From a virus (Duplodnaviria; Heunggongvirae; Uroviricota; Caudoviricetes), in IMG/VR virus record IMGVR_UViG_2908567220_000002, positions 33,901 through 97,900 of that record: a stretch of 64,000 nucleotides of DNA; one strand, written 5' to 3'. Shown here piece by piece: positions 9,560 to 49,858 of this stretch. Position numbers and translations under genes: made by a program. Under the pieces are notes generated by a model. The model had not been told where the DNA came from and did not search any database. It saw nothing but the letters and a program-made list of their open reading frames with translations. Every line of letters begins with the position of its first letter. Positions within the stretch are counted from its first letter, which is position 1.

Positions 9560-9715
9560 ATGGATACTATCGATCTTGGCAACAACGAATCTCTGGTATA
9601 CGGCGTGTTTCCCAACCAGGACGGAACGTTCACCGCGATGACGTATGCCAAAAGCAAAACGTTTAAAACCGAATCTGGCGCGCGTCGTTGGTTGGTAAGA
9701 CATTCAGGTGAATAA
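9560..9715 (+). CDS. ydfA: YdfA-like protein
   Basis: 51 aa MDTIDLGNNESLVYGVFPNQDGTFTAMTYAKSKTFKTESGARRWLVRHSGE. Confidence 0.75.
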   Translation: MDTIDLGNNESLVYGVFPNQDGTFTAMTYAKSKTFKTESGARRWLVRHSGE

Positions 9716-9716
9716 A

Positions 9717-9863
9717 ATGAACGAAACAGAATTAAAACACGTTATCGCTCTGCTTCTGGAGGATGCAAAACGCCTCCAGCAACTGGAACCAAATGCAGGC
9801 ACTGAAGCCCGCATCTGGCTGGCATTGTACGCTATTGAGTCAGGTCGTGATGATGAAGGTTAA
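9717..9863 (+). CDS. YdfB-like small protein (tentative)
   Basis: 48 aa MNETELKHVIALLLEDAKRLQQLEPNAGTEARIWLALYAIESGRDDEG; hand-translated, below track cutoff. Confidence 0.55.
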   Translation: MNETELKHVIALLLEDAKRLQQLEPNAGTEARIWLALYAIESGRDDEG

Positions 9864-10144
9864 GCATCATCTAAGTTTTTTACATAGCGCCCATTAGATT
9901 CGGTAACAAGAACACCGGGATTTTTCTTAACTTTTGAGGCCACTGATTCAGCAAGGTCAGCAACAGATTCTTTGTCTTCATTCTTGCTTGAATATATATA
10001 TTCGGCATTAGGAAGACGGTAGGTGTTCCCTAAAGAGGTTGTAATCGTTCTGGAGAATCCCTTTGCTTCCATTCGTTCATGAAGCTTATCGTAATCAGCG
10101 GAACTGGAATCGCGAAGTTCGATCCTGACTGTAAATTTTGCCAT
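9860..10144 (-). CDS. Hypothetical protein encoded antisense to the early-left operon
   Basis: Start MAKFTVRIELRD with GGAGGA SD 4 nt upstream. Confidence 0.5.
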   Translation of the reverse strand: MAKFTVRIELRDSSSADYDKLHERMEAKGFSRTITTSLGNTYRLPNAEYIYSSKNEDKESVADLAESVASKVKKNPGVLVTESNGRYVKNLDDA

Positions 10145-10159
10145 TTTATCCTCCATTTA

Positions 10160-10455
10160 GGTTCTGGGTTAGAAATGGAGACCAATACGGGGCTACGTGT
10201 GGTCGTGCGCCGGACACGGATAAGAATCCGGCACTGACAGTTTACTGAAAGGATATTTCCCTGAAAAGTCAGGGCATAACACGAAAGCGTACGGCGAAGG
10301 CCTTCACCTATGAGGCTTGTCGTTAATTTCTTCGACCGTGCGCTTCCGGTTGTGGCACTCCGCGAAATGGCGCGGCGGTAAGTATGGCGGGGTTATTCCT
10401 TCCCCCGTTGAGGACACCGGGTTGTCAGGTTGACCATACGCTTAAGTGACAACCC
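10160..10455 (+). other. Conserved non-coding element (also upstream of DicF in prophage B at 59100-59410)
   Basis: ~290 bp highly similar between prophages with small indels, no conserved ORF; inverted repeats GGGTTGTCA / TGACAACCC. Confidence 0.5.
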
Positions 10456-10504
10456 CGCCATAACTCATACTGCTATAGATATATGGGGACTAACCGGAGG
10501 AAAA

Positions 10505-10726
10505 ATGATAGTTCAATGCACAGACGGGAATAATAAGCTGCTCTGGTCATACGATACCGTCAGCCAGAAACACATAATGAATATGACTTTTATAAAGGAC
10601 GGTACTCAACAAAAAATCATTACCGCCCTTGCAAGTGCATTAACTCAGGCGACAAGCCAAATTCTGCTATCTGATAACGTTAATGGAGTATCTGATATTG
10701 GCTCGATGACCGGGAGGGAGTGCTAA
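10505..10726 (+). CDS. Small hypothetical protein (73 aa)
   Basis: GGAGG SD 5 nt before ATG; MIVQCTDGNNKLLWSYDTVSQKH...; lies in the segment that replaces DicF. Confidence 0.4.
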   Translation: MIVQCTDGNNKLLWSYDTVSQKHIMNMTFIKDGTQQKIITALASALTQATSQILLSDNVNGVSDIGSMTGREC

Positions 10727-12387: not shown

Positions 12388-14826
12388 TTGATGAGCACGA
12401 ATAAAGAAGTGTTTGCGCTATATTGCGAAGCTAAAAATGACAAGGTCAGAAAGCGTCTCGGTATTAAAGGTGGCTTTTTCTGGATCGAAGCCAAAAAACT
12501 TTCCGTTGCAGTTTCCCGCTGTATTGCCGCTATGGACGATGCTGGCTACGACGAAGATGATTTCAAAAAAACAGTTCGCGTCCATTTGCCTGTTCTAAAT
12601 GACCTGCCACCTGAAGGCGTATTTGATACTGATTTCTGTAACCGTTACGAAAAAGGTGGAGAAGATGGCATCACAATGATGCCGGTACCGTCCAGCAACA
12701 GCGATGAAAACAGTAACGCCGCTAATACTAACGTCAACGGCGAAGACATGATTGAGATTGAGGAGAATATTCTTCTGCCGGTTTCAGGTCAGCTTCTGCC
12801 TGTTAGATGGCTGGCACAGCACGGCAGCGAAAAACCTGTCACGCATGTTTCACGGGATGAACTGCGGGCATTACATAACGCACAGGAAGAAAAACTTCCC
12901 GCCGTTACCGCTCTGGCCATCTCAAATAAAGCAGTGCAACTCGAACCGCTGGAGATTCGGGATTTGTACAAACTGGTGCGGGACACTGACAAAGTTTTTC
13001 CCGCCCCCGTAAATTCAGACCTGGGACTGATGACTTCCTTCATCGAAGCATACCTGGACGCTGACTACACCAATCGCGATCTGCTTACAAAAGAGTGGAT
13101 GAAAGGAAATCATGTTTCGCGAATCAGCCGCACACCATCCGGCGCTAACGCTGGCGGCGGTATTCTTACCGATCGCGGCGAAGGTTTTGTACACGATGAT
13201 GCATCACTGGCGCGCGACGTAGCCACTGGCGTGCTGGCCCGTTCAATGGACGTGGACATTTATAACCTTCATCCGGCACACGCTAAACGCGTCGAGGAAA
13301 TTATCGCTGAAAATAAACCGCCCTTTTCTGTTTTCTTCAGCAAATTCATCACCATGCCGGGCCACAAGGATTTCTCCCGTGCCATCGTGGTTGCCTCCGT
13401 GAAAGAATCACCAGTTGGTATAGAGGCTATGCCCCACCGTGTCACCGAATACCTGAATAAAGTGCTGACTGAAACCGATCATGCCAACCCTGATCCGGAA
13501 ATCGTGGATATTGCCTGCGGTCGCTCCTCTGCCCCGATGCCGCAGCGTGTAACTGAAAAAGAAAAACATGATGAAGAAAAACCGCAACCATCTGGCGCAA
13601 TGGCAGATGAACAGGCAACGGCTGAAACAGTGGAACCGGATGCAACTGAACATCATCCGGACACGCAGCCGGTGGATGCTCAGCCACAGGTGAATTCTGT
13701 TGATGCGAAATATCAGAAACTGCGGGCAGAACTCCATGAAGCTAGGAAAAACATTTCGCCTAAAAATCCTGTCGACGCAAACAAATTACTGGCAGCCTCT
13801 CGCGGAGAATTTGTTGAAGGGATTAGTGACCCGAATGATCCGAAATGGGTTAAGGGGCTCCAGACTCGCGAGTCTTCGAACCAGAATCAACCAGAAGTGG
13901 AACAAACCAAGCCAGAATCGGGACAAAATAGCCAGGATGCACACCAAAATGAACCAAAAACGATACATCCGGAGCCAGCAGCGCAACATGCACAGAAAAA
14001 TCCCTGTAATGTTTGTGGGGAAACTGGCGGGGGCACATGCCCTGACTGTGCCTCAGTAATGGGTGACGCAACTTACCATGAGACATTCTGCGAGGAAGAT
14101 TCAGATGAATCTCAGGAAAAAGCTCCGGAGGAGATGGAAAACCCTGAACATCCGCATCCGGAAAATACTGACAGCAATCAGCATAACAATAGCGGTGATA
14201 AAACTGACAGGACGACAAATTCCTTAATTAATATGCACGGTCATCAGAAAAGAACATCCACCAGCAGAATGTGTCACCATCTGATGATCGACCTTGAAAC
14301 AATGGGAAAAAATCCTGATTCCCCGATTATCTCAATAGGTGCAATATTTTTCGATCCGCAAACCGGAGAGATGGGACCAGAATTTAATAAAACCATCGAT
14401 CTGGAAACTGCTGGCGGAGTCATTGATCGGGACGCGATCAAGTGGTGGCTGAAGCAATCACGCGAAGCGCAATCTGCCATTCTGACCGATGAAATCCCGT
14501 TAGATGATGCACTGCTGCAATTGCGGGAATTTATCGCCGAAAACTCCGGTGAATTGTTTGTTCAGGTCTGGGGAAATGGAGCCAACTTCGACAACGTGAT
14601 TTTGCGCCGTTCATATGAACGGCAGGGTATCCCCTGCCCGTGGCGCTACTACAACGATCGCGATGTACGCACAATCATTGAACTGGGAAAATCCATAGAC
14701 TTCGATGCCAGGACGCCTATTCAATTCGAAGGCATACGCCACAATGCGCTGGATGATGCCCGTCACCAGGCGAAATACGTTTCAGCAATCTGGCAAAAAC
14801 TGATCCCGAATCAGTCTGATTTTTAA
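12388..14826 (+). CDS. Large early-left protein with C-terminal DEDDh (DnaQ-like) 3-prime-5-prime exonuclease domain; exodeoxyribonuclease VIII-like position
   Basis: 812 aa; C-terminal [25 protein letters not shown] motifs; [15 protein letters not shown] zinc-ribbon-like motif; C-terminal ~190 aa identical to B's 60109..62580. Confidence 0.7.
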
Positions 14827-14889
14827 TGTTCAACCCCAGTCGTCGCCCCCAGCTATAGTGGCGGCGACCATGATTAGCGAACGATACTC

Positions 14890-15138
14890 ATGGCAAGACT
14901 TATTCTGCTCACTGAGTGGGCAAAAGAGGAATTCAGCGATCCGGTCCCTACTCCGGGCACGTTAAGTAAATACGCTAAAGCCGGAATGATATTTCCTCTC
15001 CCCAAAAAAGTTGGAAGACACTGGCGAGTGGATCCGCGAGCTCGCTTTGTCGGAATGGTAAACAAGCCGGAGGTGATCGCCACAGATCACCCTGCTTTAA
15101 AGAGGATACTGGAAGATGGCACGCCCGCGAAAATATAA
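14890..15138 (+). CDS. xis: Excisionase-like protein
   Basis: 82 aa immediately upstream of and overlapping int; identical copy at 62644..62892. Confidence 0.65.
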   Translation: MARLILLTEWAKEEFSDPVPTPGTLSKYAKAGMIFPLPKKVGRHWRVDPRARFVGMVNKPEVIATDHPALKRILEDGTPAKI

Positions 15139-16246
15139 AACCGCTGTTCCGGGATTATCTCCGTATTTTGACAAAAGAAATAACAAAGTTTACTGGCGTT
15201 ACAGGCATCCCATCACAGGTAAAAATCATGGACTCGGCAGTATTGACCAGAAACTGGCGGAAACCATTGCAGCAGAAGCGAACAGCCGTCTTGCCAGACA
15301 ACAAATGGAGCAAATGCTCAGTCTGCAGGAGAAAATTATTAGTGATACCGGCGGCGCATCAACCGTTTCCATTTTTCTGAATAATTACAGAAAAATTCAA
15401 CAGGAAAGATATGAGAACGGAGAGATCAAACTCAGCACGCTGAAGCAAAAAGCGGCTCCTCTCAGGGTGTTTGATGAACGTTTTGGAGCCAGGCCGCTAG
15501 ATGCCATAACAGTAAAAGATGTGGTATCGGTGCTGGAAGAATACAAGGCAAAGGGACATAACAGAATGGGACAAATTTTCAGGAAGGTATTGATCGATGT
15601 TTTCCGGGAGGCTCAACAAACGGGTGATGTCCCGCCAGGCTTTAACCCGGCTGAATCGGCAAAAAAACCGCAAGTGCGGATATCAAGACAGCGACTGACT
15701 TTTGATGAGTGGATGATGATTTATAACGCAGCGGAAAAGGATGGTTACTTTTTACAGCGCGGCATGCTGCTGGCACTGATGACGGGCCAGCGTCTTTCGG
15801 ATATTTGCAAAATGCAGTTTTCGGATATCCGGGATGGTTACCTTCATGTCGAACAGCAAAAAACAGGAGCCCGGATAGCCATTCCTCTGGCTCTGCGTTG
15901 CGACAAATTAAATCTTACCCTGGGTGACGTGGTGTCATCCTGTCGTGATTACATCCTTAGTCCGTGGTTATTGCACCATCATCACGCTAAGGGGATGGGT
16001 AAGCGCGGCGGGATGGTTAAACCAGCAACGTTAACAGTCGCATTTAAAAAAGCCCGGGATTCTGTGGATTACAACTGGCGTGCTAATGGCACGCCACCCT
16101 CTTTCCATGAGCAAAGATCTTTATCAGAACGATTGTTCAGAGAACAGGGAATTGATACCAAAATTTTGCTGGGCCATTCGAATCAAAAAATGACCGATGT
16201 TTACAACGATGCACGCGGTAAGGAGTGGAAAAAACTGGTCATTTGA
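15116..16246 (+). CDS. int: Tyrosine-type phage integrase
   Basis: 376 aa; terminal gene next to att region; intact version of B's disrupted copy. Confidence 0.9.
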   Translation: MARPRKYKTAVPGLSPYFDKRNNKVYWRYRHPITGKNHGLGSIDQKLAETIAAEANSRLARQQMEQMLSLQEKIISDTGGASTVSIFLNNYRKIQQERYENGEIKLSTLKQKAAPLRVFDERFGARPLDAITVKDVVSVLEEYKAKGHNRMGQIFRKVLIDVFREAQQTGDVPPGFNPAESAKKPQVRISRQRLTFDEWMMIYNAAEKDGYFLQRGMLLALMTGQRLSDICKMQFSDIRDGYLHVEQQKTGARIAIPLALRCDKLNLTLGDVVSSCRDYILSPWLLHHHHAKGMGKRGGMVKPATLTVAFKKARDSVDYNWRANGTPPSFHEQRSLSERLFREQGIDTKILLGHSNQKMTDVYNDARGKEWKKLVI

Positions 16247-18237: not shown

Positions 18238-21200
18238 TCAATGTTCGCTTCCTGTTAACTGCCGGACAAGTGCAACCAGTTCGCTTACCTGATTTTCCAG
18301 AGTGCTGATCCGGGTGTCTGCTGTTGCCAGATTTTCACGTAGCGTTGTGTTTTCCTCTTCCAGCGCGGTAACGCGATCATCTGTTTCACGGGCGACCTGA
18401 ACAAGTAAACCCGTCACGGCGGCGTAGTCAACATTAAGATAGCGCGTTTCTTCGCGTAGCTCGTTGCCGTCAACGGTCGGGCCTTGCAACTCTTCACCAT
18501 AATGAGTAAACGATCCCACAGCTTCTGGTATCGCCTCCATTACTTCCTGTGCAATAACGCCAGCATAAGGCATCCCGTTTTCCCTGAGCGTGTAGGTGTA
18601 TCCGTTCATTTTACGGATTGCTTTCGTCGCGTCGCTGATAACGAGAATATCGTCTTTAAGGTCGCGGTCTGATGACTGATTCAGCGTTGTGCAATTAATA
18701 GCGCCATTTACATCAAACAACTGGCCTGCTGACGTTTTTTGCGCATAAAACAGATACGCAGCAGACGTTCCAACCTCAAAAACGTTTTGTCGAGTACTGG
18801 AACCCCACACCCTGACAGAAAACGGCAGTTCTGCATTGCCTGAGTTCTGTAAAACAAAACGATTACCAGTCCCTGATTGCTTTGTAAGGGTTAAATCAAC
18901 GGTTGAGTTAACCTCATTCTTGTTGATAGTGAGCGCCTGCGCTGTAGCCCCGTTAACAGCACCTGTTTTGAGTTGAACCGCGCCGTCATTACCATTTAAC
19001 AGTATCTCAGCTCCGCTAAAGAAATTTTTTAGCGACAGCATCTTACTTACGCCGACTGATGAACCCAACGCCCACGCGAGAGAATTACCGGTGCTATCAA
19101 ACCCACGTACAAAGCAATCCATTTTGCTATAGTCTGACGTGCTTCCAAGGACATCAATTCGCCCTCCGCCAGATTTTACCGGACTAGATGTGGTTAACGA
19201 CCTGACAGTTATATCCTGATTCCATCCGGAAACAACAACCTGACTCCACGCTGTCCAGTTTCCATTAACAACAAAGCGAACGTATATACGTTTTGTGTCG
19301 CTGTTAATCAGCGTTTGCATGTTCGCATAATCTGAATCCCTAACCTTACGAGTCGACTCTACACGGAGCAAAAAGTTACCGGTTACACCGTCAGGCTTGT
19401 TGGTGATATTTGCACCACCTCCAGAGGATGGACAACTATAGTATTTAACCGCCCCGGCATCTGACCTGATGGTCAGGTTGTTAAGATCAACCTTCTGGCC
19501 GCCAATGTTTTCAGGCTCGATGGCTCCTGCTATCCCGGCACTGAACGTAGCAGCGGCTGAAAACGCTGTCGTACCTTTGAAAGCCAGTTGACCACCAATC
19601 GTTAATCCCTTGTCGAGTTTCGCTTGCGTGATCAATTTGCTGTTTTGTTTCTGATCAGGACTCTCGCCAAAAGCCAGATCCCCATTAGTATCAATTCCAA
19701 GATACTTTTGGTTCACGTTGTCTAACTTAAACCCAATGGACACATTTTCAGAAGAACCGGAACGCGTTAAAACCAACGGCGTGTGCTGTACTCCATAGAT
19801 GCTGAGCGTAGTTGCCGATGAGTCAGTGTCGGTATTTGCAATCTCAATCGTTCTGCTTTTAATTTTATACGCTACTGTGAGATCACGGACTTCAACCCTC
19901 CCGTCGTGACGAACAACAAGATCCCCTCCTGATGTCCCCCCTGCTGTCTTTGCCCTGATGCGAACTTCGCCAAGCGAATCAGTGTTAGGACCAGCATAGA
20001 TTATGCCGCGCTCTGTGTTATCGCCAGTATAAAACCGCAAAGCGGTGACTCCACTGTCTGCCCGCAGGAAGACTGACGGTGTACCTTTTTTGATTGTCAA
20101 GTCACCGGTCATTGTATCGCCGGTTTTTTTTACCTGCGCATCGTTCGTTACGTTGCCAAGTCCAACATCCGATTTCGACGGCTTGTTTGCCGAGCCGTAT
20201 AGCTCATTGACGCTAAAAGTCCCGTTGTTAAGCCGGGCATCGGTGCCGGCATAGATCTTAATCTTCGCGGTTGAGTAGTCGATATTGATCGCTGACCACG
20301 TATCGCCGCACCGCGAGAATATACCAGAACCGTGGCTATAAATGGTCGCCGTGCTTCCGGTCGGCTTATCACCGCGCCAGAAATGACCACCTTTGTCACG
20401 CAGAGCTTTTAAGATCTCTACATCGCTCATCTTGCCGTTTGTTGATATCCCGCTACCGCCAAGACCGAAAGCGCCTGTAAGCATAGCATTAGAAAGACCC
20501 AAATCTGCTTTAGTCGGCTTGTTTAACTGGTCGTAAATCCTTACAACGGGGCTTTCAACATATCCAGAAGGCGCGGCGGTTTGCTTAACAAATCCGTCTG
20601 GAATGTATAATTCCGTGCGTGCCGTCTGCGCCAGTACCGCAACCTTTGCGCCGTTGATAAATGCGCGCTGGAAGGCCCAAACCTCAATAAAGCCATCACC
20701 TTTAACCAGGCCGTAACGCATCTGGTTGTTATCGGTCAGCCCGGTTGACCCTAAGCGGCGTATACTCAGATGACGAGAAACATTATCCGCACTAAGCAAA
20801 GAAGGCATACCGCGCGCCGAGATCTCGATAAAGTCAATGTTTCCGTAAGGGGAGCCGTAGTTACCAGCGTTAGTAACCATTAGCGTTACATGGCAATTGC
20901 CGCTTCCGGGATCGGAAAGTTTCGCGATCTTTATGTAAAAAGACTCATTACCAGTAACAACGGGCCAATCGTATTGCGTCATCGGGCTGACGAGTCCCCC
21001 GACCTTGTCGAGATATTCTTTCGCCTTGTTCTCTGACGCTTTAGCGTTGGTTTCGCTGACCTTTGCTGCTGCCTCACTATTTTTCGCGTTGGTTTCTGAT
21101 TTTTTGGCTGCTGTCGCGGAGTTTGCCGATGCAGTTTGTGAGTCTGCTGCCGCCTGTGCGCTGTTATCCGCATTCGTCTCAGACGTTTTTGCGGCCTTCG

Positions 21201-22017
21201 CGGAATTTCCTGCCGCCGTTGCCGAGGAAGCTGCACTACTGGCACTTGATGATGCGTTCGTTTCTGATGATTTCGCTGCCTCTTTTGAGGCCGCCGCATC
21301 CCGGGATGAGGTGGCAGCTTCTGACGCTTTCGTGGTCGCGGTGGATGCAGAAGTGGCTGCAGATTTTTGTGACGCTGCAGCATTCGTTTCTGACGTTTTC
21401 GCCGCACCGGCACTGGTGGCTGCCGCGCTTTTTGAAGACTCTGCGGCGGCAGCACTTTTTAATGCTTCAGTGGCCTTTGTTGATGCCGTTCCTGCGCTGG
21501 AAAAAGCCTCCTGAGCCGACGTCGCGGCCTGTCCGGCTGACGTTCTGGCTGCGCGTGCTGAGTCTGCAGCATCAGTCGCATGGGTTGCCGCCTCACGGGC
21601 TGATGTGCCGGCATCGCTGGCTGACTTCTTCGCGGCTGCCGTGTTCTGTGCCACTGCGGACGCGTTACGCGCCACCTCTGCCACCATCAGTTCAAAGCGG
21701 CGCAGTGCCTCCGGACGGGCATCATCCTCCGTCATGGCACCGAGAAAATCATTCAGCGTACCCGGTTGTGAGTCTTCATACACGGTGATGGTCCCGGCAT
21801 GCGATGGCGGGAAGCCTTCCACCAACAGAATAACGCTGTACTGACCGTACTCAACGTCCATGCTGTAACGCCCTGCTTCATCCGGATTTTCAGATGCCAC
21901 CGTGTTCACCACCACCGTGGTGCTGTTACGTTTTGCTTTCAGCTGGATTGTGCAGTTCTGTACCGGTTTACCTGCACCGTCTTTCAGTACACCTGAAATC
22001 TTTACTGCCATATTCAC
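18238..22017 (-). CDS. stf: Side tail fiber protein (Stf-like) with Ala/Ser/Thr-rich repeats and C-terminal chaperone-type domain
   Basis: 1259 aa; low-complexity KSAATSA.../SETNA... repeats; C-terminal segment resembling autoproteolytic tail-fiber chaperone domain. Confidence 0.8.
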   Translation of the reverse strand: MNMAVKISGVLKDGAGKPVQNCTIQLKAKRNSTTVVVNTVASENPDEAGRYSMDVEYGQYSVILLVEGFPPSHAGTITVYEDSQPGTLNDFLGAMTEDDARPEALRRFELMVAEVARNASAVAQNTAAAKKSASDAGTSAREAATHATDAADSARAARTSAGQAATSAQEAFSSAGTASTKATEALKSAAAAESSKSAAATSAGAAKTSETNAAASQKSAATSASTATTKASEAATSSRDAAASKEAAKSSETNASSSASSAASSATAAGNSAKAAKTSETNADNSAQAAADSQTASANSATAAKKSETNAKNSEAAAKVSETNAKASENKAKEYLDKVGGLVSPMTQYDWPVVTGNESFYIKIAKLSDPGSGNCHVTLMVTNAGNYGSPYGNIDFIEISARGMPSLLSADNVSRHLSIRRLGSTGLTDNNQMRYGLVKGDGFIEVWAFQRAFINGAKVAVLAQTARTELYIPDGFVKQTAAPSGYVESPVVRIYDQLNKPTKADLGLSNAMLTGAFGLGGSGISTNGKMSDVEILKALRDKGGHFWRGDKPTGSTATIYSHGSGIFSRCGDTWSAINIDYSTAKIKIYAGTDARLNNGTFSVNELYGSANKPSKSDVGLGNVTNDAQVKKTGDTMTGDLTIKKGTPSVFLRADSGVTALRFYTGDNTERGIIYAGPNTDSLGEVRIRAKTAGGTSGGDLVVRHDGRVEVRDLTVAYKIKSRTIEIANTDTDSSATTLSIYGVQHTPLVLTRSGSSENVSIGFKLDNVNQKYLGIDTNGDLAFGESPDQKQNSKLITQAKLDKGLTIGGQLAFKGTTAFSAAATFSAGIAGAIEPENIGGQKVDLNNLTIRSDAGAVKYYSCPSSGGGANITNKPDGVTGNFLLRVESTRKVRDSDYANMQTLINSDTKRIYVRFVVNGNWTAWSQVVVSGWNQDITVRSLTTSSPVKSGGGRIDVLGSTSDYSKMDCFVRGFDSTGNSLAWALGSSVGVSKMLSLKNFFSGAEILLNGNDGAVQLKTGAVNGATAQALTINKNEVNSTVDLTLTKQSGTGNRFVLQNSGNAELPFSVRVWGSSTRQNVFEVGTSAAYLFYAQKTSAGQLFDVNGAINCTTLNQSSDRDLKDDILVISDATKAIRKMNGYTYTLRENGMPYAGVIAQEVMEAIPEAVGSFTHYGEELQGPTVDGNELREETRYLNVDYAAVTGLLVQVARETDDRVTALEEENTTLRENLATADTRISTLENQVSELVALVRQLTGSEH

Positions 22018-28275: not shown

Positions 28276-28604
28276 CAGTTCACCACCTGTTTAAACTCTG
28301 CGCTGAACCCAACACGCAACATACTGACCTGCGACGACCATTTTGCGCAGGTCACCTTTATCTGCCTGTAACCATAAGGCGGCGTCCACAGAAAGGCCTT
28401 CCAGCCCCCGTGCTCAGCCAGAAACGACTCCAGCGCCGTGGCCTCCTCACGGGAGACAGACAGCGTCACGCTGTACGTTTTCAGGTCAGCGTTCAGCCCG
28501 GCAGGCGCACGCTGGGAATAGCCATCACCAAAGCGCACCTCCCTGACGGAAGGAGCCGATGTCACATCCATCCCGGGTTTCACTTTCCAGCGGAAGGTTT
28601 TCAT
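28275..28604 (-). CDS. M: Minor tail protein M
   Basis: 109 aa; lambda gpM-like. Confidence 0.9.
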   Translation of the reverse strand: MKTFRWKVKPGMDVTSAPSVREVRFGDGYSQRAPAGLNADLKTYSVTLSVSREEATALESFLAEHGGWKAFLWTPPYGYRQIKVTCAKWSSQVSMLRVGFSAEFKQVVN

Positions 28605-31162
28605 CGTCCACCTCCGGAGAACAGACCACCATCGCGCATCTGTGCCTGGATTTCATCACGGGCACCCTTGCGGGCCATGTCATACACCGCCTTCATCATC
28701 TGTGGACCTGGCAGACCATTCGTACCGTCGTTCTGAATCACCACGTTGTTGTTCTGCTCAAACCTGATACCCTCTGAACGCCGCATTTGCGCCGGACTTC
28801 CGGTGCCACCGACATAACCGCCGGTGGCATAGCCGCGCATCAGCCGGTAGAGATTTCCCACGCCAATCCGGCTGGTTGCCTCCTTCGTGAAGACAAATTC
28901 ACCACGGTGAACAATCCCCGCTGGCTCATATTTGCCGCCGGTTCCCGTAAATCCTCCGGTTGCAAAATGGAGTTTCGCCGCAGCGGCCTGAATGGCTGTA
29001 CCGCCTGACGCGGATGCGCCGCCACCAACAGCCCCGCCAATAGCGCTGCCGATACTCCCGACAATCCCCACCATTGCCTGCTTAAGCAGAATTTCTGTCA
29101 TCATGGACAGCACGGAACGGGTGAAGCTGCGCCAGTTCTGTTCACTGCCGGTCAGCATCGCCGCCATATTCTGCGCAATACCATCAAAGGTCTGCGTGGC
29201 AGCACTTTTAACCTGCGACATACTGTCCGTGGCACTCTCTTCCCACTCACTCCAGCCTGACCTGAGGCCTGCCATCCAGCTCCCGCGAAGCTGGTCTTCA
29301 GCCGCCCAGGTCTTTTTCTGCTCTGACATGACGCTATTCAGCGCCAGCGGATTATCGCCATACTGTTCCTTCAGGCGCTGTTCCGTGGCGTCCCGCGCTG
29401 CCTGCCGGTCAGTCAGCCCCCGGTTTTTCGCCTCAATGGCTGCCCGTTTTGCCCGTTGCTGCTGTGCGAATTTATCCGCCTGCTGCGCCAGCGCGTTCAG
29501 GTGCTCCTGATACGTGACCTTATCGCCAAGTGCAGCCAGCTGGCGTTTGTACTCCAGCGTCTCATCTTTATGCGCCAGCAGGGATTTCTCCTGTGCGGAC
29601 AGCTGGCGACGTTGCGCCGCCTCCTCCAGTACCGCGAACTGACTTTCTGCCTTCCACAAATCCCGGCGCTGCTGGCTGATTTTCTCATTCGCTCCGGCAT
29701 GCTTCTCCAGCGTCCGGAGTTCTGCCTGAAGCGTCAGCAGGGCAGCATGAGCACTGTCTTCCTGACGATCGCCCGCAGACACCTTCACGCCGGACTGTTT
29801 CGGCTTTTTCAGCGTCGCTTCATAATCCTTTTTCGCCGCCGCCATCAGCGTGTTGTAATCCGCCTGCAGGATTTTCCCGTCTTTCAGTGCCTTGTTCAGT
29901 TCTTCCTGACGGGCGGTATATTTCTCCAGCGGCGTCTGCAGCCGTTCGTAAGCCTTCTGCGCCTCTTCGGTATATTTCAGCCGTGACGCTTCGGTATCGC
30001 TCTGCTGCTGCGCATTTTTGTCCTGTTGAGTCTGCTGCTCAGCCTTCTTTCGGGCGGCTTCAAGCGCAAGACGGGCCTTTTCACGATCATCCCAGTAACG
30101 CGCCCGCGCTTCATCGTTAACAAAATAATCATCCTTGCGCAGATTCCAGATGTCGTCTGCTTTCTTAAACGCAGCCTCTGCCTTAATCAGCATCTCCTGC
30201 GCGGTATCAGGACGACCAATATCCAGCACCGCATCCCACATGGATTTGAATGCCCGCGCAGTCCTGTCTGCCCAGGTCTCCAGCGTGCCCATGTTCTCTT
30301 TCAGGCGGCGGGTCTGGTCATCAAACCCTTTCGTTGCGGCCTCGTTCGCCGCCTGCAATGCCCCGGCTTCATCGCCGGAACGCTGCAACTGAGCAACATA
30401 CGCAATCTGCTCCGCCGTCACGTTATGGAACTGGCGTGCCATCGCCGTCAGCCCCGACGTCGGGTCTGTGGTCAGCTTCCCGAAGGCTTCAGCGACCTTG
30501 TCCACCTCCACGCCGGATGCAGAGGAGAAACGCGCCACACTCTGGCTGATGGACGCAATCTGAGCCTCACCGCTTACCCCCGCCTTAACCAGTGCGCTGA
30601 GTGACTCGCTGGTCTGGTTAAACGTCAGCCCTGCCGCCTGCCCGGCTCTGGACAGGACCAGCATACGATCTGCCGTCAGTCCCGCCTGATTGCCGGAAAG
30701 GACCAGCGTTTTATTGAAATTGGACAGGGTTGAGTCACCCTGATACCAGGCATACGCCAGCGCACCGGTCGCCACCGCCAGCGAAGTGATACCAACCATC
30801 GGCAGGGTGATCGCACCGGTAAGCCCCCTGAACATGGGGATCATCCCGCCGAAGGAGTCCTTCACCTGACCACCCTGTTGCAGCAGGATGAGCCACGGAT
30901 TCTGCCCCCCTGCAAGCTGCGTGGCCACGTCGGTGAACTGCGCAGGCAGCATACGCATGGCAGCTTTATACTGCCCGACGGAAATCCCCGCTTTCTGTGC
31001 AGCCAGCGCCTGCCGGTTCATTGACTGTTCAACGACTGCCGCTGTTTTTTTCGCATCACTTTCCGTACCGGAAAAATGACGCCTGACTCTGGCCATCTGC
31101 TCGTCAAATCTGGCCGCATCCAGACTTAAATCAACGACCAGATCGCCTACCGGTTCAGCCAT
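28601..31162 (-). CDS. H: Tail tape measure protein H
   Basis: 853 aa; lambda gpH-like. Confidence 0.95.
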   Translation of the reverse strand: MAEPVGDLVVDLSLDAARFDEQMARVRRHFSGTESDAKKTAAVVEQSMNRQALAAQKAGISVGQYKAAMRMLPAQFTDVATQLAGGQNPWLILLQQGGQVKDSFGGMIPMFRGLTGAITLPMVGITSLAVATGALAYAWYQGDSTLSNFNKTLVLSGNQAGLTADRMLVLSRAGQAAGLTFNQTSESLSALVKAGVSGEAQIASISQSVARFSSASGVEVDKVAEAFGKLTTDPTSGLTAMARQFHNVTAEQIAYVAQLQRSGDEAGALQAANEAATKGFDDQTRRLKENMGTLETWADRTARAFKSMWDAVLDIGRPDTAQEMLIKAEAAFKKADDIWNLRKDDYFVNDEARARYWDDREKARLALEAARKKAEQQTQQDKNAQQQSDTEASRLKYTEEAQKAYERLQTPLEKYTARQEELNKALKDGKILQADYNTLMAAAKKDYEATLKKPKQSGVKVSAGDRQEDSAHAALLTLQAELRTLEKHAGANEKISQQRRDLWKAESQFAVLEEAAQRRQLSAQEKSLLAHKDETLEYKRQLAALGDKVTYQEHLNALAQQADKFAQQQRAKRAAIEAKNRGLTDRQAARDATEQRLKEQYGDNPLALNSVMSEQKKTWAAEDQLRGSWMAGLRSGWSEWEESATDSMSQVKSAATQTFDGIAQNMAAMLTGSEQNWRSFTRSVLSMMTEILLKQAMVGIVGSIGSAIGGAVGGGASASGGTAIQAAAAKLHFATGGFTGTGGKYEPAGIVHRGEFVFTKEATSRIGVGNLYRLMRGYATGGYVGGTGSPAQMRRSEGIRFEQNNNVVIQNDGTNGLPGPQMMKAVYDMARKGARDEIQAQMRDGGLFSGGGR

Positions 31163-31595
31163 ACCGGACTCCTCCTGCGATCCCTTCTGATACTGTCATC
31201 AGTATTACGTCATCCTCCGTCATGCCCGCCACATCCGGGGAAGCGGGGATAACTTCATTCCCGTCCGGGTCAAAGCGGACGCCTCCGGCAAGCCCTGCCG
31301 CTTTCTGCATCAGCACATCATCTTCAGGCTCTTCGTCAGCCTCACACCGGTTCAGCAGACTGAAATCCAGCGGATGCATATCCGGATCGCTGAAAAACAG
31401 GCTGAGTACGGTGTACGTCAGCCCGGAAAAGTGCATATCCAGCAGAACATCATGAAAATAATGGGTACTGTAAAAGCGGTGCCAGTCGGCATACTCCGTG
31501 GATGACATCCCGGCAAGCATGGCGCGCCAGTCGGGTCGCCCCATCTCACGCGCCAGTTTCAGGGCAAAACTCAGCTCACCGTCGAACACTTTCCC
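31155..31595 (-). CDS. T: Tail assembly chaperone T segment, expressed as G-T fusion by -1 frameshift
   Basis: -1 frame ORF beginning at the slippery site; product reads GKVFDGELSFALKLAREM... Confidence 0.8.
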   Translation of the reverse strand, partial: GKVFDGELSFALKLAREMGRPDWRAMLAGMSSTEYADWHRFYSTHYFHDVLLDMHFSGLTYTVLSLFFSDPDMHPLDFSLLNRCEADEEPEDDVLMQKAAGLAGGVRFDPDGNEVIPASPDVAGMTEDDVILMTVSEGIAGGVRYG

Positions 31596-31993
31596 GCAGA
31601 AACAGGCTCTGCTGGCCCGGCGTCATCTGCCTGTTCAGGTGCATCATTCACAACAAACTCAGACATACCGGACAGACGCATTACCACGTTTTCAGCCTGA
31701 GCAATTGCCTCCGTGGGCCAGGTGGTAAGCACTTCCTGCTCAATCTGCGTAATGGCTTCATTCATGGACGGCAGCTTTGTCTTCTGCGGATGGCTATGCC
31801 ACAGGGACATCGCCACCAGAAACGCCCCGCCTCTGATAAGATCCTCTACAGACACCTGCAGGTTGCCGCTGGATTCAGCCTTTTTTTCCTGCTCTTTCAA
31901 CCAGGCAAGATGCTCAATACGCTGCAGGGCTGACAGTTCAGAAAGCGTGACGGTCACGCCGTTATGTTCAAATGATTCGGTTTTCAGGAACAT
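31571..31993 (-). CDS. G: Tail assembly chaperone G
   Basis: 140 aa MFLKTESFEHNGVTVTLSELSALQRIEHL...; lambda gpG-like. Confidence 0.9.
   Translation of the reverse strand: MFLKTESFEHNGVTVTLSELSALQRIEHLAWLKEQEKKAESSGNLQVSVEDLIRGGAFLVAMSLWHSHPQKTKLPSMNEAITQIEQEVLTTWPTEAIAQAENVVMRLSGMSEFVVNDAPEQADDAGPAEPVSAGKCSTVS
31589..31595 (-). other. Programmed -1 ribosomal frameshift slippery heptamer GGGAAAG (G/T)
   Basis: Minus-strand GCG GGA AAG in the G frame, six codons before the G stop, as in lambda. Confidence 0.8.
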
Positions 31994-32008: not shown

Positions 32009-32749
32009 TTAACTGTCGGTGACGGTGATTCCTGCAACCACAGCAAGTTCACCATTACCGGATACAACCGGAATGTTGACCTTGCCTGCAGCAACACCTT
32101 TCACGGTGATGGTCATACCACTGACCGACACGGTGGCTTTTGTTTTATCCGCAGACACCGCACGGAAGCTCTTGTCGGTTGCGCCTTCCGGCTGGAATGC
32201 CACGGTCAGCGTGATGCTCCGCCCTTTCACCACCGAGGAGCTGGCAGGCGTAACGGTCATGCCGGTTGCCGCCGTCACCGTACTGCGATCTTCTGCCATT
32301 GACGGACGGCCCACATTGGTGACCTTCACCGTACGGGTGATCACTTCCTTCGCCGTCACCGCCTTACCGATACTGCTGACCCAGCCACGGAACACATCGA
32401 CCGTGCCGTTCGGGAAGCGGATTTTATAGGCACGGGTATCACCTTCATTAAACCACGCCAGCAGCGCCTGCTGCCCCTGCTCTCCGGGCATCCACGCCAG
32501 CGTGAAGCTGGTATCTCCGGCGGATTTCTGCCCCTGCCCGGTCGCGGTCCAGTCCGCATCTTCATCATCGAGATAACTGTCGTCATAGGACTCAGCGGTC
32601 AGTTCGCCGGGCGTCAGGTCTTTAACTTTTGCCAGACGCGACCAGTCAACGTCTGAAAGCGGGTTCGCATAAGGGTCACCGCTCCCCTTATAAACCCACA
32701 GGGTGGTCCCGGCACCTTTCACCGGCATTACAGGATTTGGTACAGGCAT
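32009..32749 (-). CDS. V: Major tail protein V
   Basis: Start [20 protein letters not shown] (tracked ORF extends to 32779); lambda gpV-like with C-terminal Ig-like region. Confidence 0.9.
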
Positions 32750-32756
32750 AGCGTCC

Positions 32757-33152
32757 TCACATTTCATAGGTAATGACATAAGTCAGATCGGCTGAACTCC
32801 ACAGGCCCGCATCATCGTCGCGCCGGTAGTCATAGCCACTGGCCACCATACTGGTGATCAAATCTGACAGTGCCGGGATATCGCTCATCACCGGATAAAT
32901 CCGGGACTCCATCCACGAATCCAGCTCTGAATCCGGCACCTGAGCAGGCAGGAAAACTTCAATATGCAGCTCCGCCTGCCAGGTATCGCTGTCCAGCTCT
33001 TCGCCCGTGTATTCAGCGCCGGTGAGATAAACGGCAATTGCCGGAAAATCTTCCTCATCAAAAACAGCGGGGCGACCATCAAAAAGCGTCGCCCCGGCGT
33101 CATGCTTCTCCAGTGCATCCAGTACGGCTGCACGGAGTTCAGTATGTTTCAT
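32757..33152 (-). CDS. U: Tail terminator protein U
   Basis: 131 aa; lambda gpU-like. Confidence 0.9.
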
Positions 33153-41924: not shown

Positions 41925-42992
41925 ATGAGTCAACATCAATATTACCCACAGCTGAAATGGAAGCCTGCTGAATATGAATCTCTGATGCTTTTAGATCAAA
42001 CTACGCTCTCTGGTTTTACTCCGATCATTACCATTCCAGACATAGACTGGGATTATGAAAACGAATGCTACAAGAAGAGTTTGAGTTCTTACTTATCTGA
42101 CTTCGGTATTAACCTTGCGGCATCCTGGAAAGCCAATCGTCCTGTTTTGCTGGATGTTAAATATTTAGATAAACATGGTTCGAGCCGCCATCATCCTCTA
42201 GATATGTGTATCCAAGATGCTAGAGTAAATGGTAAGGAAATTATCCCTGTTGTCTCTCCCGCATATTCAACAAACTATATACATGCTGTTCAACGCAACT
42301 TAATCAATGGGCTCGCTATATCTATCACCCCCCAGACATGGCACCAATTCACAAGTCTGGTTAACCACTTAAATATTCATCCTAGTTTAATTGATGTAAT
42401 CATTGATTTTGGAGATATTCAAAACGCAACTGATAGTTTAAAACAACAAGCATTAAGCATGGTCAACACATTATCAGGCCAAGCTCCGTGGAGAAACTTG
42501 ATTTTATCTTCAACCGCATACCCTGCATCACAGGCAGGGATACCGCAACATCAAGTTCATCATATTCCGCGCCATGAATACGATCTTTGGATGTATGTAG
42601 TACAGAATTTTAGCAATGGAAGAACGCCAAGTTTTAGTGATTATCCCACCGCTAGCTCTACCATTACGAGCGTAGACCCACGCTTCATGTCTCAGTATGT
42701 CTCAGTGAGATATTCGAACGATACCTCATGGATCTTTGTAAAAGGTACCGCAGTTAAAGGAAATGGATGGGGCCAAACTAAAAACTTATGTACTACCCTT
42801 GTTAGTTCGCCAGAGTATCAAGTCTTTGGCTCCAAATTTAGTTGGGGGGATGATTACATTTACCAAAGATCATTAGGCGCTAACAAATCTGGCGGCTCTA
42901 AAGAATGGCGTAAAGTTGCACATACGCACCATATTACGTTAGTCGTGAGACAGCTTTATTGGTTGGCGCAGACTCAGCCTGCCAAGCCTTAA
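41925..42992 (+). CDS. Hypothetical 355-aa protein, AT-rich cargo gene between lysis cassette and cos
   Basis: AAGGAG SD; no motif I can assign; possibly beta-protein/sce7725-like by size (unverified recollection). Confidence 0.6.
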   Translation: MSQHQYYPQLKWKPAEYESLMLLDQTTLSGFTPIITIPDIDWDYENECYKKSLSSYLSDFGINLAASWKANRPVLLDVKYLDKHGSSRHHPLDMCIQDARVNGKEIIPVVSPAYSTNYIHAVQRNLINGLAISITPQTWHQFTSLVNHLNIHPSLIDVIIDFGDIQNATDSLKQQALSMVNTLSGQAPWRNLILSSTAYPASQAGIPQHQVHHIPRHEYDLWMYVVQNFSNGRTPSFSDYPTASSTITSVDPRFMSQYVSVRYSNDTSWIFVKGTAVKGNGWGQTKNLCTTLVSSPEYQVFGSKFSWGDDYIYQRSLGANKSGGSKEWRKVAHTHHITLVVRQLYWLAQTQPAKP

Positions 42993-43554
42993 CTTTCCAG
43001 CCTACGCGTTTCTTTAAGGCTGTTCTGACTTCAAGCCTGAGATTCGCTATTGGAATATTTTCCGCAATAATATTCCATAACTCAAATCGGGGCTTGCTTT
43101 TGATTCCTTTGGAATAGCCCCATCGTTCAAGTACGTCGATACATTCATCTTTCCAAAGCAATTGAGCGAGCATCAATGAGTTATGGTTTCGATTAAGCTT
43201 TTCTCCACGCATGTGCTTTATAAGAATGGCGCCTTTTGGCCCAACAGAAACCGTTTTAACGCCCCACCAACCTGGGATTAACTTTAATGCTCCCTCAAGA
43301 TGTTTCTCAGCTACGACAAGAGTAACCTTGTCCATTACAGAAGAATAATGCTTGATTTGAAGAGGCAAACGCTCCAAAGAGTCATATTCACTTTTGAGCT
43401 CGTACCCGTGTATAACACCATTTATTACAGCAATGTCTGCTCTACTGGCGCCAAGGGATATGGAAAATTCATCGACCACAAGGCAGTCAGGATCTAAATG
43501 CGATTCTTTCAAAAGCTTATGATGCACCGCGAACCTAACATCTTGATCTTTCAT
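42934..43554 (-). CDS. Hypothetical 206-aa protein with possible PD-(D/E)xK nuclease-like motif; convergent with and overlapping the 355-aa gene by 59 nt
   Basis: AAGGAG SD; ...VVDEF...DIAVINGVIHGYELKS... pattern (D...ExK); AT-rich. Confidence 0.6.
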   Translation of the reverse strand: MKDQDVRFAVHHKLLKESHLDPDCLVVDEFSISLGASRADIAVINGVIHGYELKSEYDSLERLPLQIKHYSSVMDKVTLVVAEKHLEGALKLIPGWWGVKTVSVGPKGAILIKHMRGEKLNRNHNSLMLAQLLWKDECIDVLERWGYSKGIKSKPRFELWNIIAENIPIANLRLEVRTALKKRVGWKVKAWQAESAPTNKAVSRLT

Positions 43555-48089: not shown

Positions 48090-48460
48090 TTTTTGACCTG
48101 CTCTTCATGCATTATGGGGTAAATCTTCACCCCCAGACGTCCACCAGATACTGGCTGACCACGAACGATATTGATTTCATCAAACTGCTCATCGTCCATT
48201 AACACTCCCGCATGCGTCAGCGCATCCAGCGGTGCTTTCAGGATATTGTCCAGGTCGCGACGACGCTTATCCGGTGGCTCTGCAATCACCTTTATCGCCA
48301 GCCTTCCGGACAGGCTTAATTTCAGCCGCTGCTGGCGAACAATAAGCGCCACTGCCCGGCGATAACGCTCCCCGGCTTTTGATACAAAATATGTGCTGCC
48401 ACGGCGTCGCCAGTAAGTGTTCACCGTCGGCGGGTAAGGTAAAACCAAATCTATGAGCAT
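48086..48460 (-). CDS. rusA: Holliday junction resolvase RusA
   Basis: 124 aa; paralog of 517..867. Confidence 0.9.
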   Translation of the reverse strand: MLIDLVLPYPPTVNTYWRRRGSTYFVSKAGERYRRAVALIVRQQRLKLSLSGRLAIKVIAEPPDKRRRDLDNILKAPLDALTHAGVLMDDEQFDEINIVRGQPVSGGRLGVKIYPIMHEEQVKK

Positions 48461-48472
48461 CAGTCACCTCTT

Positions 48473-49519: not shown

Positions 49520-49520
49520 G

Positions 49521-49799: not shown

Positions 49800-49858
49800 C
49801 GGTTGTCTCTGCTGGCGCAGCAGGTGCCAGTTGTTCAGGCTGGCTCACGTATTATAAC

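What the first reader, a model, noticed from the sequence alone, without database searches (positions are those of the whole stretch)
31571..31600. Conserved lambda-type G/T programmed -1 frameshift
Seen: GCG GGA AAG in the G frame six codons before the G stop; the -1 frame continues as ...GKVFDGELSFALKLAREM into the T ORF. This matches the lambda slippery heptamer GGGAAAG. Expected rather than novel, but confirms correct gene structure.
Basis: partly seen in the sequence, partly recalled or inferred. Interest (0 to 1): 0.2.

Follow-up and report, generated by a model that had tools for sequence, protein, structure and literature searches.

The report
Lambda-type G/GT tail chaperone frameshift site
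This is the well-known phage lambda signal that makes about one ribosome in thirty slip back one base near the end of tail gene G to make a G-T fusion protein; here it sits in a lambda-like prophage of E. coli and is real but ordinary.

Summary
Confirmed and already known. G is 31993..31571 and ends ...GCG GGA AAG TGT TCG ACG GTG AGC TGA. The heptamer G GGA AAG occupies 31595..31589 in X XXY YYZ register. The -1 frame then reads GKVFDGELSFALKLAREM and stays open for 146 codons to 31155, overlapping the tape-measure gene start.

GGGAAAG alone occurs at the chance rate (9 found, 9.35 expected), but only this copy joins a long 0-frame ORF to a long -1 ORF. G and the -1 part match lambda gpG and gpT models well above cutoff, between the tail tube and tape-measure genes. 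The last 48 nt of G match lambda exactly.

In 242 of 255 related loci the architecture persists, with A_AAG invariant (GGGAAAG, AAAAAAG, GGAAAAG). Across 84 distinct sequences, codon-position variability switches from the 0 frame to the -1 frame exactly at the site. The -1 peptide is conserved from the first codon after it, even where no start codon occurs for 25 codons. T has no credible ribosome-binding site.

Public annotation often lists T as a separate GTG-initiated CDS; the real product is a 279-aa GT fusion. A possible downstream RNA structure is a weak, unproven lead. Fusion protein synthesis was not measured here.

The parts
31589..31595 (-). Slippery heptamer G GGA AAG (X XXY YYZ in the G frame). 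The Gly and Lys tRNAs re-pair to GGG AAA in the -1 frame.
   Evidence: Searches give the sequence and register. It is identical in lambda, phage 21 and PhiR46_1. The A AAG core is invariant in 84 distinct related segments. PMC3296357 Table 1 lists GGGAAAG for lambda G/GT.
31571..31993 (-). Gene G, the tail assembly chaperone gpG: 140 aa, the 0-frame product and the major product. Its stop codon TGA is at 31573..31571.
   Evidence: translation. Pfam PF06894 Phage_TAC_2, E = 1.6e-52. NCBIfam TIGR01674 phage_lambda_G, 189 bits against a cutoff of 74. SD match upstream of the ATG is -6.6 kcal/mol.
31155..31595 (-). The -1 frame T segment: 146 codons from the slip site to the stop at 31157..31155. 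It is expressed only as the C-terminal part of the gpGT fusion. The annotated 'T' ORF, GTG 31589..31155, is the same frame.
   Evidence: translation. Pfam PF06223 Phage_tail_T, E = 4.4e-14. TIGR01715 phage_lam_T, 184.5 bits against a cutoff of 77. PHROG 32165 is a 290-position fused-GT family: G matches positions 1-142 and the T part matches 137-285.
31155..31993 (-). Predicted gpGT fusion CDS, complement(join(31155..31589,31589..31993)): 279 aa, 89% identical to lambda gpGT built the same way.
   Evidence: conceptual fusion products; 89% identity to lambda; phage 21 annotated with the equivalent join.
31571..31622 (-). The G/T overlap, 52 nt: the only interval in which a -1 shift gives a full-length fusion. 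The -1 frame opens at 31622 and the G stop ends at 31571.
   Evidence: the -1 frame is open from position 479 of the extracted segment, which is window 31622. In mEp460-type relatives the overlap shrinks to about 25 nt and still contains the A_AAG.
31511..31581 (-). Candidate downstream RNA structure, not established: a closing helix starting 7 nt after the heptamer, enclosing a GGCGCG/CGCGCC helix. Listed as a lead only.
   Evidence: MFE is -39.2 kcal/mol, z = -2.85 against dinucleotide shuffles. There is some covariation. It is more stable than synonymous recodings in most but not all clades. Several pairs break in the Fels-1, mEp460 and L117 clades. PMC5009743 says no stimulatory signals seem to be involved.
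32009..32749 (-). Gene V, the major tail tube protein, immediately upstream of G. This is defining synteny.
   Evidence: Pfam PF16461 Phage_TTP_12, E = 2.7e-70, plus Big_2. The start at 32749 is favoured over the mechanical 32779 by SD strength.
28601..31162 (-). Gene H, the tape measure protein (853 aa), immediately downstream. Its ATG overlaps the end of T by 8 nt. This is defining synteny.
   Evidence: Pfam PF06791 TMP_2, E = 7e-70, and PF09718 Tape_meas_lam_C. Strong SD match of -10.3 kcal/mol.

Best explanation
This is the lambda-type programmed -1 ribosomal frameshift that produces the tail assembly chaperones gpG and gpGT, carried by a lambdoid prophage in an E. coli chromosome.

Most ribosomes translating G (31993->31571, minus strand) terminate at TGA and make the 140-aa gpG. 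A small fraction slips, about 3-4% in lambda. When GGA is in the P site and AAG is in the A site, both tRNAs slip back one base to GGG AAA. E. coli's single tRNA-Lys (anticodon mnm5s2UUU) pairs weakly with AAG and re-pairs on AAA. Translation then continues in the -1 frame with GUG UUC GAC..., bypasses the G stop, and ends at 31155, giving a 279-aa gpGT.

By homology with lambda, the shared G domain binds the tape measure protein H and the T domain recruits the tail tube protein V. The fixed slippage rate sets the roughly 30:1 G:GT ratio needed for tail assembly, and neither protein is in the mature virion.

Shown here: the sequence, register, ORF geometry, family membership, synteny, identity to lambda, and the evolutionary signature of -1 frame translation starting at the heptamer. 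Inferred from lambda experiments: actual slippage, its rate, and the chaperone functions.
For: 1. Sequence and register: GCG GGA AAG, then five sense codons, then TGA in the G frame. The -1 frame is open for 146 codons.
2. Uniqueness: of the nine GGGAAAG copies in the window, only this one links a long 0-frame ORF to a long -1 ORF.
3. Family: G matches PF06894 and TIGR01674. The T part matches PF06223 and TIGR01715. Both abut within one fused-GT PHROG profile.
4. Synteny: V-G-T-H, as in lambda.
5. Identity: the 48 nt at the end of G are identical to lambda NC_001416, phage 21, PhiR46_1 and others. GT is 89% identical to lambda GT.
6. Conservation: 242 of 255 related loci keep a 0-frame A_AAG within the overlap, followed by a long -1 ORF. 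The heptamers are GGGAAAG (81 loci), GGAAAAG (158), AAAAAAG (2) and AGAAAAG (1). A AAG is invariant in 84 distinct segments.
7. Frame switch: upstream of the site, entropy peaks at 0-frame codon position 3 (0.93/0.51/1.32 for positions 1/2/3). From the site onward, still inside G, it peaks at -1 frame position 3 (0.57/0.33/1.08).
8. Peptide: the -1 peptide GK[VA][FL]..EL.F..LARE[MF]GRPDWR is conserved from the first post-site codon, while the 0-frame tail drifts (KCSTVS, KSSTAS, KHSKAS, KPLPAS, KP, KS). In Flotzy and mEp213 the first -1 frame start codon is 25 codons downstream.
9. No independent start: the SD match for GTG 31589 is -4.3 kcal/mol at about 1 nt spacing, which is background level (39% of positions score at least -4). 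H scores -10.3 and G -6.6.
10. Literature: lambda GGGAAAG G/GT, with the 0 frame kept about 96% of the time and the rate dependent on tRNA-Lys U34 thiolation (PMC3296357). The 30:1 ratio, the chaperone roles, and the statement that G_GGA_AAG, A_AAA_AAG and A_AAG are shift-prone in E. coli come from PMC5009743.
Against: Nothing in the sequence argues against it. The limits are these:

- No protein or ribosome-profiling data exist for this prophage, so slippage and its rate are inferred from lambda.
- It is not shown that the prophage is inducible or makes tails, although all tail and head ORFs I inspected are intact.
- The bare heptamer is not statistically enriched in the window.
- The primary papers (Levin et al. 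1993; Xu et al. 2004) could not be read here. Their content is cited through PMC5009743 and PMC3296357 or from my own knowledge.
Confidence: 0.96

Rival explanations
1. T is an independent gene, translated from its own start (GTG at 31589 or a downstream ATG). This is how the lambda RefSeq record and PGAP annotate it, and on this view the heptamer is incidental.
For: The mechanical ORF list gives a 144-aa ORF from GTG 31589. NC_001416 and NZ_AP022105 annotate T as a separate CDS at the equivalent position.
Against: The GTG is not conserved: it is GTC, GCA or GCC in relatives that keep the same -1 peptide. The SD match is at background level and sits about 1 nt from the start. The -1 peptide is conserved upstream of any possible start codon in Flotzy and mEp213. 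Codon periodicity switches to the -1 frame at the heptamer itself. One PHROG profile spans G and T as a fused protein. Lambda experiments show that T sequences are made as the GT fusion (PMC5009743, PMC3296357).
Confidence: 0.02
2. The fusion arises by transcriptional slippage, with RNA polymerase adding or omitting a base in the G/A run, and not by ribosomal slippage.
For: The site contains short homopolymer runs (GGG, AAA). Two relatives have A6 (AAAAAAG). PMC5009743 notes that transcriptional and translational shifting can coexist at some sites.
Against: From my own knowledge of slippage sites, runs of three are far shorter than the runs of roughly seven or more that support productive polymerase slippage. 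The conserved element is the tRNA-re-pairing pattern A_AAG in a fixed codon register and not run length. In lambda the rate responds to tRNA-Lys U34 modification, which points to a ribosomal mechanism (PMC3296357).
Confidence: 0.01
3. It is the lambda-type ribosomal frameshift, but with an unrecognised downstream RNA structure (31581..31511, 7-nt spacer) that tunes the slippage rate in the lambda/N15/Flotzy-type clades.
For: The downstream 89 nt fold to -39.2 kcal/mol, z = -2.85, with 2 of 200 shuffles as stable. On 15 sequences, 6 pairs have double changes against 3.5 in shuffles (17 of 500 shuffles reach six), and the covariation score is 0.157 against 0.04-0.07 for slid controls. Pair 36-104 is GC/AU/CG and pair 38-102 is UG/CG/GU across clades. 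Native RNA is more stable than synonymous recodings in 8 of 12 clade representatives, z from -1.4 to -2.5. The spacer length is canonical for -1 PRF stimulators, from my own knowledge.
Against: The region encodes the most conserved peptide of T (LAREMGRPDWRAML). The core helix GGCGCG/CGCGCC follows from the Ala-Arg and Arg-Ala codons. Many pairs break in the Fels-1, mEp460 and L117 clades, and there the recoding test is not significant. The clades are not independent. The RNAalifold consensus is weak, at -10.5 kcal/mol. A fold of the 111-nt segment 31640..31530, which ends inside the proposed structure, gives z = +0.76. No Rfam family matches. [quoted passage not shown]
Confidence: 0.12

Closest known systems
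Bacteriophage lambda G/GT -1 programmed ribosomal frameshift (NC_001416: G 9711..10133, T 10115..10549; Levin, Hendrix & Casjens 1993, as cited in PMC5009743)
   Same: Identical heptamer GGGAAAG, identical register, and identical distance to the G stop. The 48 nt at the end of G and the first 38 residues of the -1 peptide are identical. G is 140 aa, GT is 279 aa, and the synteny is V-G-T-H.
   Different: The proteins have diverged only modestly: G is 81% identical and GT is 89% identical. The differences cluster in the middle of G and in the C-terminal third of T. This copy is in a chromosomal prophage.
Phage 21 (OL657228) 'tape measure protein chaperone' pair, annotated with a ribosomal-slippage join
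   Same: 93.4% nucleotide identity over the region and the same site. The record annotates both G and the joined GT product.
   Different: None of substance. It shows the correct annotation style, which the lambda RefSeq record and the PGAP records lack.
Conserved tail assembly chaperone frameshift of long-tailed dsDNA phages (Xu, Hendrix & Duda 2004, as cited in PMC5009743), including the N15/HK225, Flotzy, Fels-1 and mEp460 homologues examined here
   Same: Two overlapping ORFs between the tail tube and tape measure genes, a -1 shift near the end of the first ORF, and the same gpG and gpT families.
   Different: Those relatives use G GAA AAG, where only the A-site A_AAG can re-pair perfectly, or A AAA AAG. 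In the Fels-1 and mEp460 types the G stop follows after one codon instead of five.
E. coli dnaX -1 frameshift at A AAA AAG (as described in PMC5009743)
   Same: The same host ribosome and the same tRNA-Lys (UUU) slippage from AAG to AAA in the A site.
   Different: From my own knowledge, dnaX shifts at about 50% and depends on an upstream SD-like element and a downstream stem-loop. The lambda-type site shifts at a few percent and is reported to need no stimulator (PMC5009743). The gene products are also unrelated.

Membership tests
Lambda-type gpG/gpGT tail assembly chaperone frameshift | Two overlapping ORFs located between the major tail (tube) protein gene and the tape measure protein gene, all on one strand | tested here: met
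   V is 32749..32009, G is 31993..31571, T runs to 31155, and H is 31162..28601, all on the minus strand.
Lambda-type gpG/gpGT tail assembly chaperone frameshift | The upstream ORF belongs to the gpG chaperone family | tested here: met
   PF06894, E = 1.6e-52. TIGR01674 equivalog, 189.2 bits against a cutoff of 74.45. It is 81% identical to lambda gpG.
Lambda-type gpG/gpGT tail assembly chaperone frameshift | The downstream ORF is in the -1 frame relative to G and belongs to the gpT family | tested here: met
   The -1 frame is open for 146 codons. PF06223, E = 4.4e-14. TIGR01715 equivalog, 184.5 bits against a cutoff of 77.35.
Lambda-type gpG/gpGT tail assembly chaperone frameshift | A slippery heptamer X XXY YYZ in the 0 frame lies inside the G/T overlap (lambda: G GGA AAG, with the G stop six codons after AAG) | tested here: met
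   G GGA AAG at 31595..31589, with five sense codons and then TGA following. It is the only in-register slippery heptamer in the 52-nt overlap.
Lambda-type gpG/gpGT tail assembly chaperone frameshift | T has no translation initiation signals of its own | tested here: met
   SD energies for GTG 31589 and for the ATGs at -1 frame codons 17, 25 and 29 range from -4.3 to -1.9 kcal/mol, which is background, against -6.6 for G and -10.3 for H. The GTG is not conserved in relatives. This is computational only.
Lambda-type gpG/gpGT tail assembly chaperone frameshift | Evolutionary conservation of the site and of -1 frame coding starting at the site | tested here: met
   242 of 255 loci keep the architecture. 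A AAG is invariant in 84 distinct segments, and codon-position entropy switches frame at the heptamer. The -1 peptide is conserved from the first post-site codon.
Lambda-type gpG/gpGT tail assembly chaperone frameshift | A GT fusion protein is actually made at a low fixed ratio to G (about 1:30) and is required for tail assembly | not testable with these tools
   Known for lambda (PMC5009743, PMC3296357). No expression data exist for this prophage.
Stimulator-dependent -1 PRF (dnaX / IS3 / coronavirus type) | A conserved downstream stem-loop or pseudoknot 5-9 nt after the heptamer that is needed for efficient shifting | tested here: inconclusive
   A structure with a 7-nt spacer is predicted, z = -2.85, with partial covariation and modest excess stability over synonymous recodings. 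It is confounded by strong peptide conservation, broken in distant clades, and has no Rfam match.

The most novel reading that the evidence does not exclude
The G-T shift of lambda and its close relatives is generally described as stimulator-independent. The most novel reading not excluded is that it is tuned by a conserved downstream mRNA structure: window 31581..31511 on the minus strand, with a closing helix starting 7 nt after GGGAAAG and enclosing the GGCGCG/CGCGCC helix. On this reading, part of the extreme nucleotide conservation of the first ~30 codons of T would reflect RNA-level as well as protein-level selection.
Probability: 0.12. Interest if true: 0.35.

Novelty: already known. 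Interest (0 to 1): 0.08.

Why it matters
It matters mainly for annotation. In this window, as in the lambda RefSeq record and in PGAP-annotated E. coli genomes, T would be called as a separate 144-aa protein starting at a GTG. That start is not conserved and has no usable ribosome-binding site. The biologically real product is a 279-aa G-T fusion made by a -1 slip at 31595..31589 on the minus strand.

A related G-T region is present in 3,709 of 5,426 complete E. coli genomes, with a median of two copies per genome. The mis-annotation is therefore very widespread. Biologically the finding adds nothing new: it is an orthologue of the textbook lambda case. The intact site, together with the intact head and tail ORFs, is consistent with a tail module that is still functional.

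Tried and rejected
1. Motif enrichment: GGGAAAG occurs 9 times against 9.35 expected, so the motif alone carries no signal. I used register and ORF context instead.
2. Independent T start: tested by SD energies and by conservation of start codons. Rejected.
3. Downstream stimulatory structure: examined by single-sequence folds, RNAalifold, pair counts on 15 sequences, clade-wise pair states on 84 distinct sequences and a synonymous-recoding null. The result is suggestive but confounded and not conserved in distant clades, so I kept it only as a low-probability lead.
4. Rfam: no family at the site; the best match has E = 0.29 and is far below its gathering score.
5. PDB by sequence: no solved relative of G or GT.
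6. Primary papers: Levin 1993 and Xu 2004 are not held, so I relied on PMC5009743 and PMC3296357.
7. The genome-contig scan gave little diversity. Most hits are lambda DNA itself on low-coverage contigs of unrelated genera, which I take to be contamination. L019 (Shigella) is a decayed G.
8. The first viral-contig scan returned almost only near-identical relatives. I re-ranked the scan around divergent members to obtain diversity.
9. My first attempt to translate T parts by hand-picked coordinates failed on frame. I redid it by script.
10. Structure prediction, fold search and the large protein-database searches were not used, because family membership was already unambiguous.

Full report
**Observation**

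The coordinates 31571-31600 are given on the plus strand, but the genes are on the minus strand. The reverse complement reads ...CCT GTT TCT GCG GGA AAG TGT TCG ACG GTG AGC TGA.

The ORF 31993..31571(-) translates to a 140-aa protein ending ...PAEPVSAGKCSTVS*. The heptamer GGGAAAG lies at 31595..31589(-) and is in X XXY YYZ register with that frame (G GGA AAG). Five sense codons and then TGA (31573..31571) follow. Translating from 31595 in the -1 frame gives GKVFDGELSFALKLAREMGRPDWR..., open for 146 codons to the stop at 31157..31155. The only omission is the strand.

**Is it more than chance?**

The bare heptamer is not enriched: there are 9 copies in the window against 9.35 +/- 3.25 expected from shuffles. 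Among the nine, only this copy has a long 0-frame ORF upstream in the correct register (138 codons) and a long open -1 frame downstream (146 codons). The signal is in the context and not in the motif.

**Identity of the genes**

- The 0-frame protein matches Pfam PF06894 (lambda tail assembly chaperone G, E = 1.6e-52) and the NCBIfam equivalog TIGR01674 phage_lambda_G (189 bits, cutoff 74).
- The -1 frame segment matches PF06223 Phage_tail_T and the equivalog TIGR01715 phage_lam_T (184.5 bits, cutoff 77).
- In PHROGs, both pieces hit one 290-position family of fused proteins. G covers positions 1-142 and the -1 part covers 137-285.
- Upstream lies the lambda-type tail tube protein V (PF16461). 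Downstream lies the 853-aa tape measure protein H (PF06791 and PF09718), whose ATG overlaps the end of T.

This is the lambda order V-G-T-H.

**Comparison with lambda and close relatives**

The region is 93-97.5% identical at the nucleotide level to many lambdoid phages. The last 48 nt of G, including the heptamer, are identical in the window, lambda NC_001416, phage 21, PhiR46_1 and an Escherichia sp. prophage. The conceptual GT fusion is 279 aa, the same length as lambda's, and 89% identical to it.

Phage 21's record annotates the GT product with a two-piece join. The lambda RefSeq record and the PGAP annotation of the closest E. coli chromosome (NZ_AP022105, 99.9% identical here) list T as a separate CDS starting at the GTG that immediately follows AAA.

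**Comparative test of function**

I collected relatives in two ways. A protein-level search of phage records gave matches from 72% down to 35% identity. Three scans of viral contigs were ranked around different family members.

Of 255 loci, 242 keep the architecture: an intact G, a 0-frame A_AAG inside the G/T overlap, and a long -1 ORF.

The heptamer varies in a way that preserves slipperiness:
- G GGA AAG in 81 loci
- G GAA AAG in 158 loci
- A AAA AAG in 2 loci
- A GAA AAG in 1 locus
- One further locus, L223, has G GGA AAA.

The A AAG core is invariant in all 84 distinct 122-nt segments. PMC5009743 states that G_GGA_AAG, A_AAA_AAG and the minimal A_AAG are all shift-prone in E. coli.

Two results bear directly on translation:

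1. The -1 frame peptide GK[VA][FL]..EL.F..LARE[MF]GRPDWR is conserved from the very first codon after the site. The 0-frame tail drifts freely (KCSTVS, KSSTAS, KHSKAS, KPLPAS, KP, KS). In Flotzy and mEp213 the first possible -1 frame start codon is 25 codons downstream of the site. The conserved N-terminal part of T in those phages can therefore only be translated by ribosomes arriving from G.
2. Codon-position entropy switches frame at the heptamer. Upstream it is 0.93/0.51/1.32 for 0-frame positions 1/2/3. From the site onward, still within the G ORF, it is 0.57/0.33/1.08 for -1 frame positions 1/2/3.

**Independent initiation of T**

The annotated GTG (31589) has an anti-SD pairing of only -4.3 kcal/mol, ending about 1 nt from the start. 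Of all positions in the region, 39% score at least -4. G scores -6.6 and H scores -10.3. The GTG is replaced by GTC, GCA or GCC in relatives. I reject this rival.

**Mechanism**

The mechanism is taken from lambda. PMC3296357 gives GGGAAAG as the G/GT slippery sequence. It reports that the 0 frame is kept about 96% of the time, and that the rate depends on thiolation of U34 of tRNA-Lys(UUU), which reads both AAG and AAA. That dependence argues for a ribosomal and not a transcriptional mechanism.

PMC5009743 summarises the 30:1 gpG:gpGT ratio. It also describes the binding of the G part to the tape measure protein and of the T part to the tail tube protein, and the absence of both proteins from virions. 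For this prophage, those steps are inferred by orthology.

**A lead I could not settle**

The 89 nt after the heptamer fold to -39.2 kcal/mol (z = -2.85), with a closing helix beginning 7 nt after the site.

- On 15 sequences the structure shows more double-sided changes than shuffles do (6 against 3.5) and a covariation score of 0.157, against 0.04-0.07 for slid controls.
- On 84 distinct sequences in 15 clades, pair 36-104 is GC/AU/CG and a few other pairs covary. However, several pairs of the central helix break in the Fels-1, mEp460 and L117 clades.
- Native RNAs are more stable than synonymous recodings of the same peptide in 8 of 12 clade representatives (z from -1.4 to -2.5), but not in the Fels-1-type clades.
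- The region encodes the most conserved peptide of T, and the clades are not independent.
- The RNAalifold consensus is weak, and no Rfam family matches.

I give this reading about 12%.

**Context**

The window is E. coli chromosome carrying lambdoid prophage DNA. A related G-T region occurs in 3,709 of 5,426 complete E. coli genomes, with a median of two places per genome. Tail and head ORFs around the site are intact.

**Verdict**

The feature is an orthologue of the textbook lambda G/GT -1 programmed frameshift. It is already known and of low interest. Its practical consequence is that T should be annotated as complement(join(31155..31589,31589..31993)) and not as an independent GTG-initiated gene.

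Noticed in passing
window 1-16246 versus 48119-64000: The left 16 kb is collinear with the right 16 kb at 84-95% identity in patches. Each block ends in a lambda-type integrase gene (15116..16246 +; 63059..64000 + runs off the window). This looks like two related but distinct lambdoid prophages in tandem. The G/T site belongs to the one spanning about 17.3-64 kb.
   Followed up: partly
window 41925-43554: A two-gene insert lies between the lysis genes and the small terminase gene. 41925..42992(+) matches Pfam Beta_protein PF14350 and PADLOC PD-Lambda-2_C (E = 4e-32). 42934..43554(-) matches PADLOC 'cll' (E = 3e-31) and is annotated 'sce7726 family protein' in the closest genome. This is a candidate prophage-borne anti-phage defence cassette.
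   Followed up: partly
window 2521-2696(-), 52240-52415(-), 59414-59465(+), 11202-11390(+): Rfam gathering-level hits: two sok antitoxin RNAs (hok/sok loci, one in each prophage block), DicF, and an isrK plus C4 antisense RNA pair just inside or upstream of a Rha/Ash-domain ORF.
   Followed up: no
window 32749-32779(-): The mechanical V ORF starts at ATG 32779 with a poor SD match (-2.2 kcal/mol). The ATG at 32749 has a better one (-5.9). From memory, this corresponds to the lambda V N-terminus MPVPNP..., so the true start is probably 32749.
   Followed up: partly
NC_001416 9711-10549 (L001); NZ_AP022105 (L274 20058-20896): The lambda RefSeq record and the PGAP annotation list T as a stand-alone CDS from the non-conserved GTG, with no ribosomal-slippage join. 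Phage 21 (OL657228) annotates the join. This is a systematic annotation gap that affects thousands of E. coli genomes.
   Followed up: yes
L004-L016, L018, L020-L023 (genome contigs): G-T DNA whose G end matches lambda exactly turns up on short or low-coverage contigs in assemblies labelled Neobacillus, Oceanobacillus, Kitasatospora, Shewanella, Pseudoxanthomonas, Psychrobacter, Bradyrhizobium and others. This is almost certainly lambda DNA contamination of those assemblies.
   Followed up: partly
L223 (IMGVR_UViG_3300011581_000012), end of G: A Flotzy-type relative has GCG GGA AAA CCC... (G GGA AAA) instead of G GAA AAG. It is the only locus with an intact architecture but without a 0-frame AAG.
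   Followed up: no
L231-L255 group, Fels-1 and mEp460 groups: In these clades the G stop (TAG or TGA) comes one codon after the A_AAG instead of five. This shrinks the G/T overlap to about 25 nt and pins the shift site very tightly.
   Followed up: partly
window 2937-3731(+): An ORF in the left prophage block has a eukaryotic-type Ser/Thr protein kinase domain (PF00069, E = 1.4e-31).
   Followed up: no
window 18238-22017(-): An intact 1259-aa side tail fibre ORF has a prophage tail fibre N-terminal domain and a C-terminal Peptidase_S74 (intramolecular chaperone) domain. The closest reference genome has only fragments of this gene.
   Followed up: no
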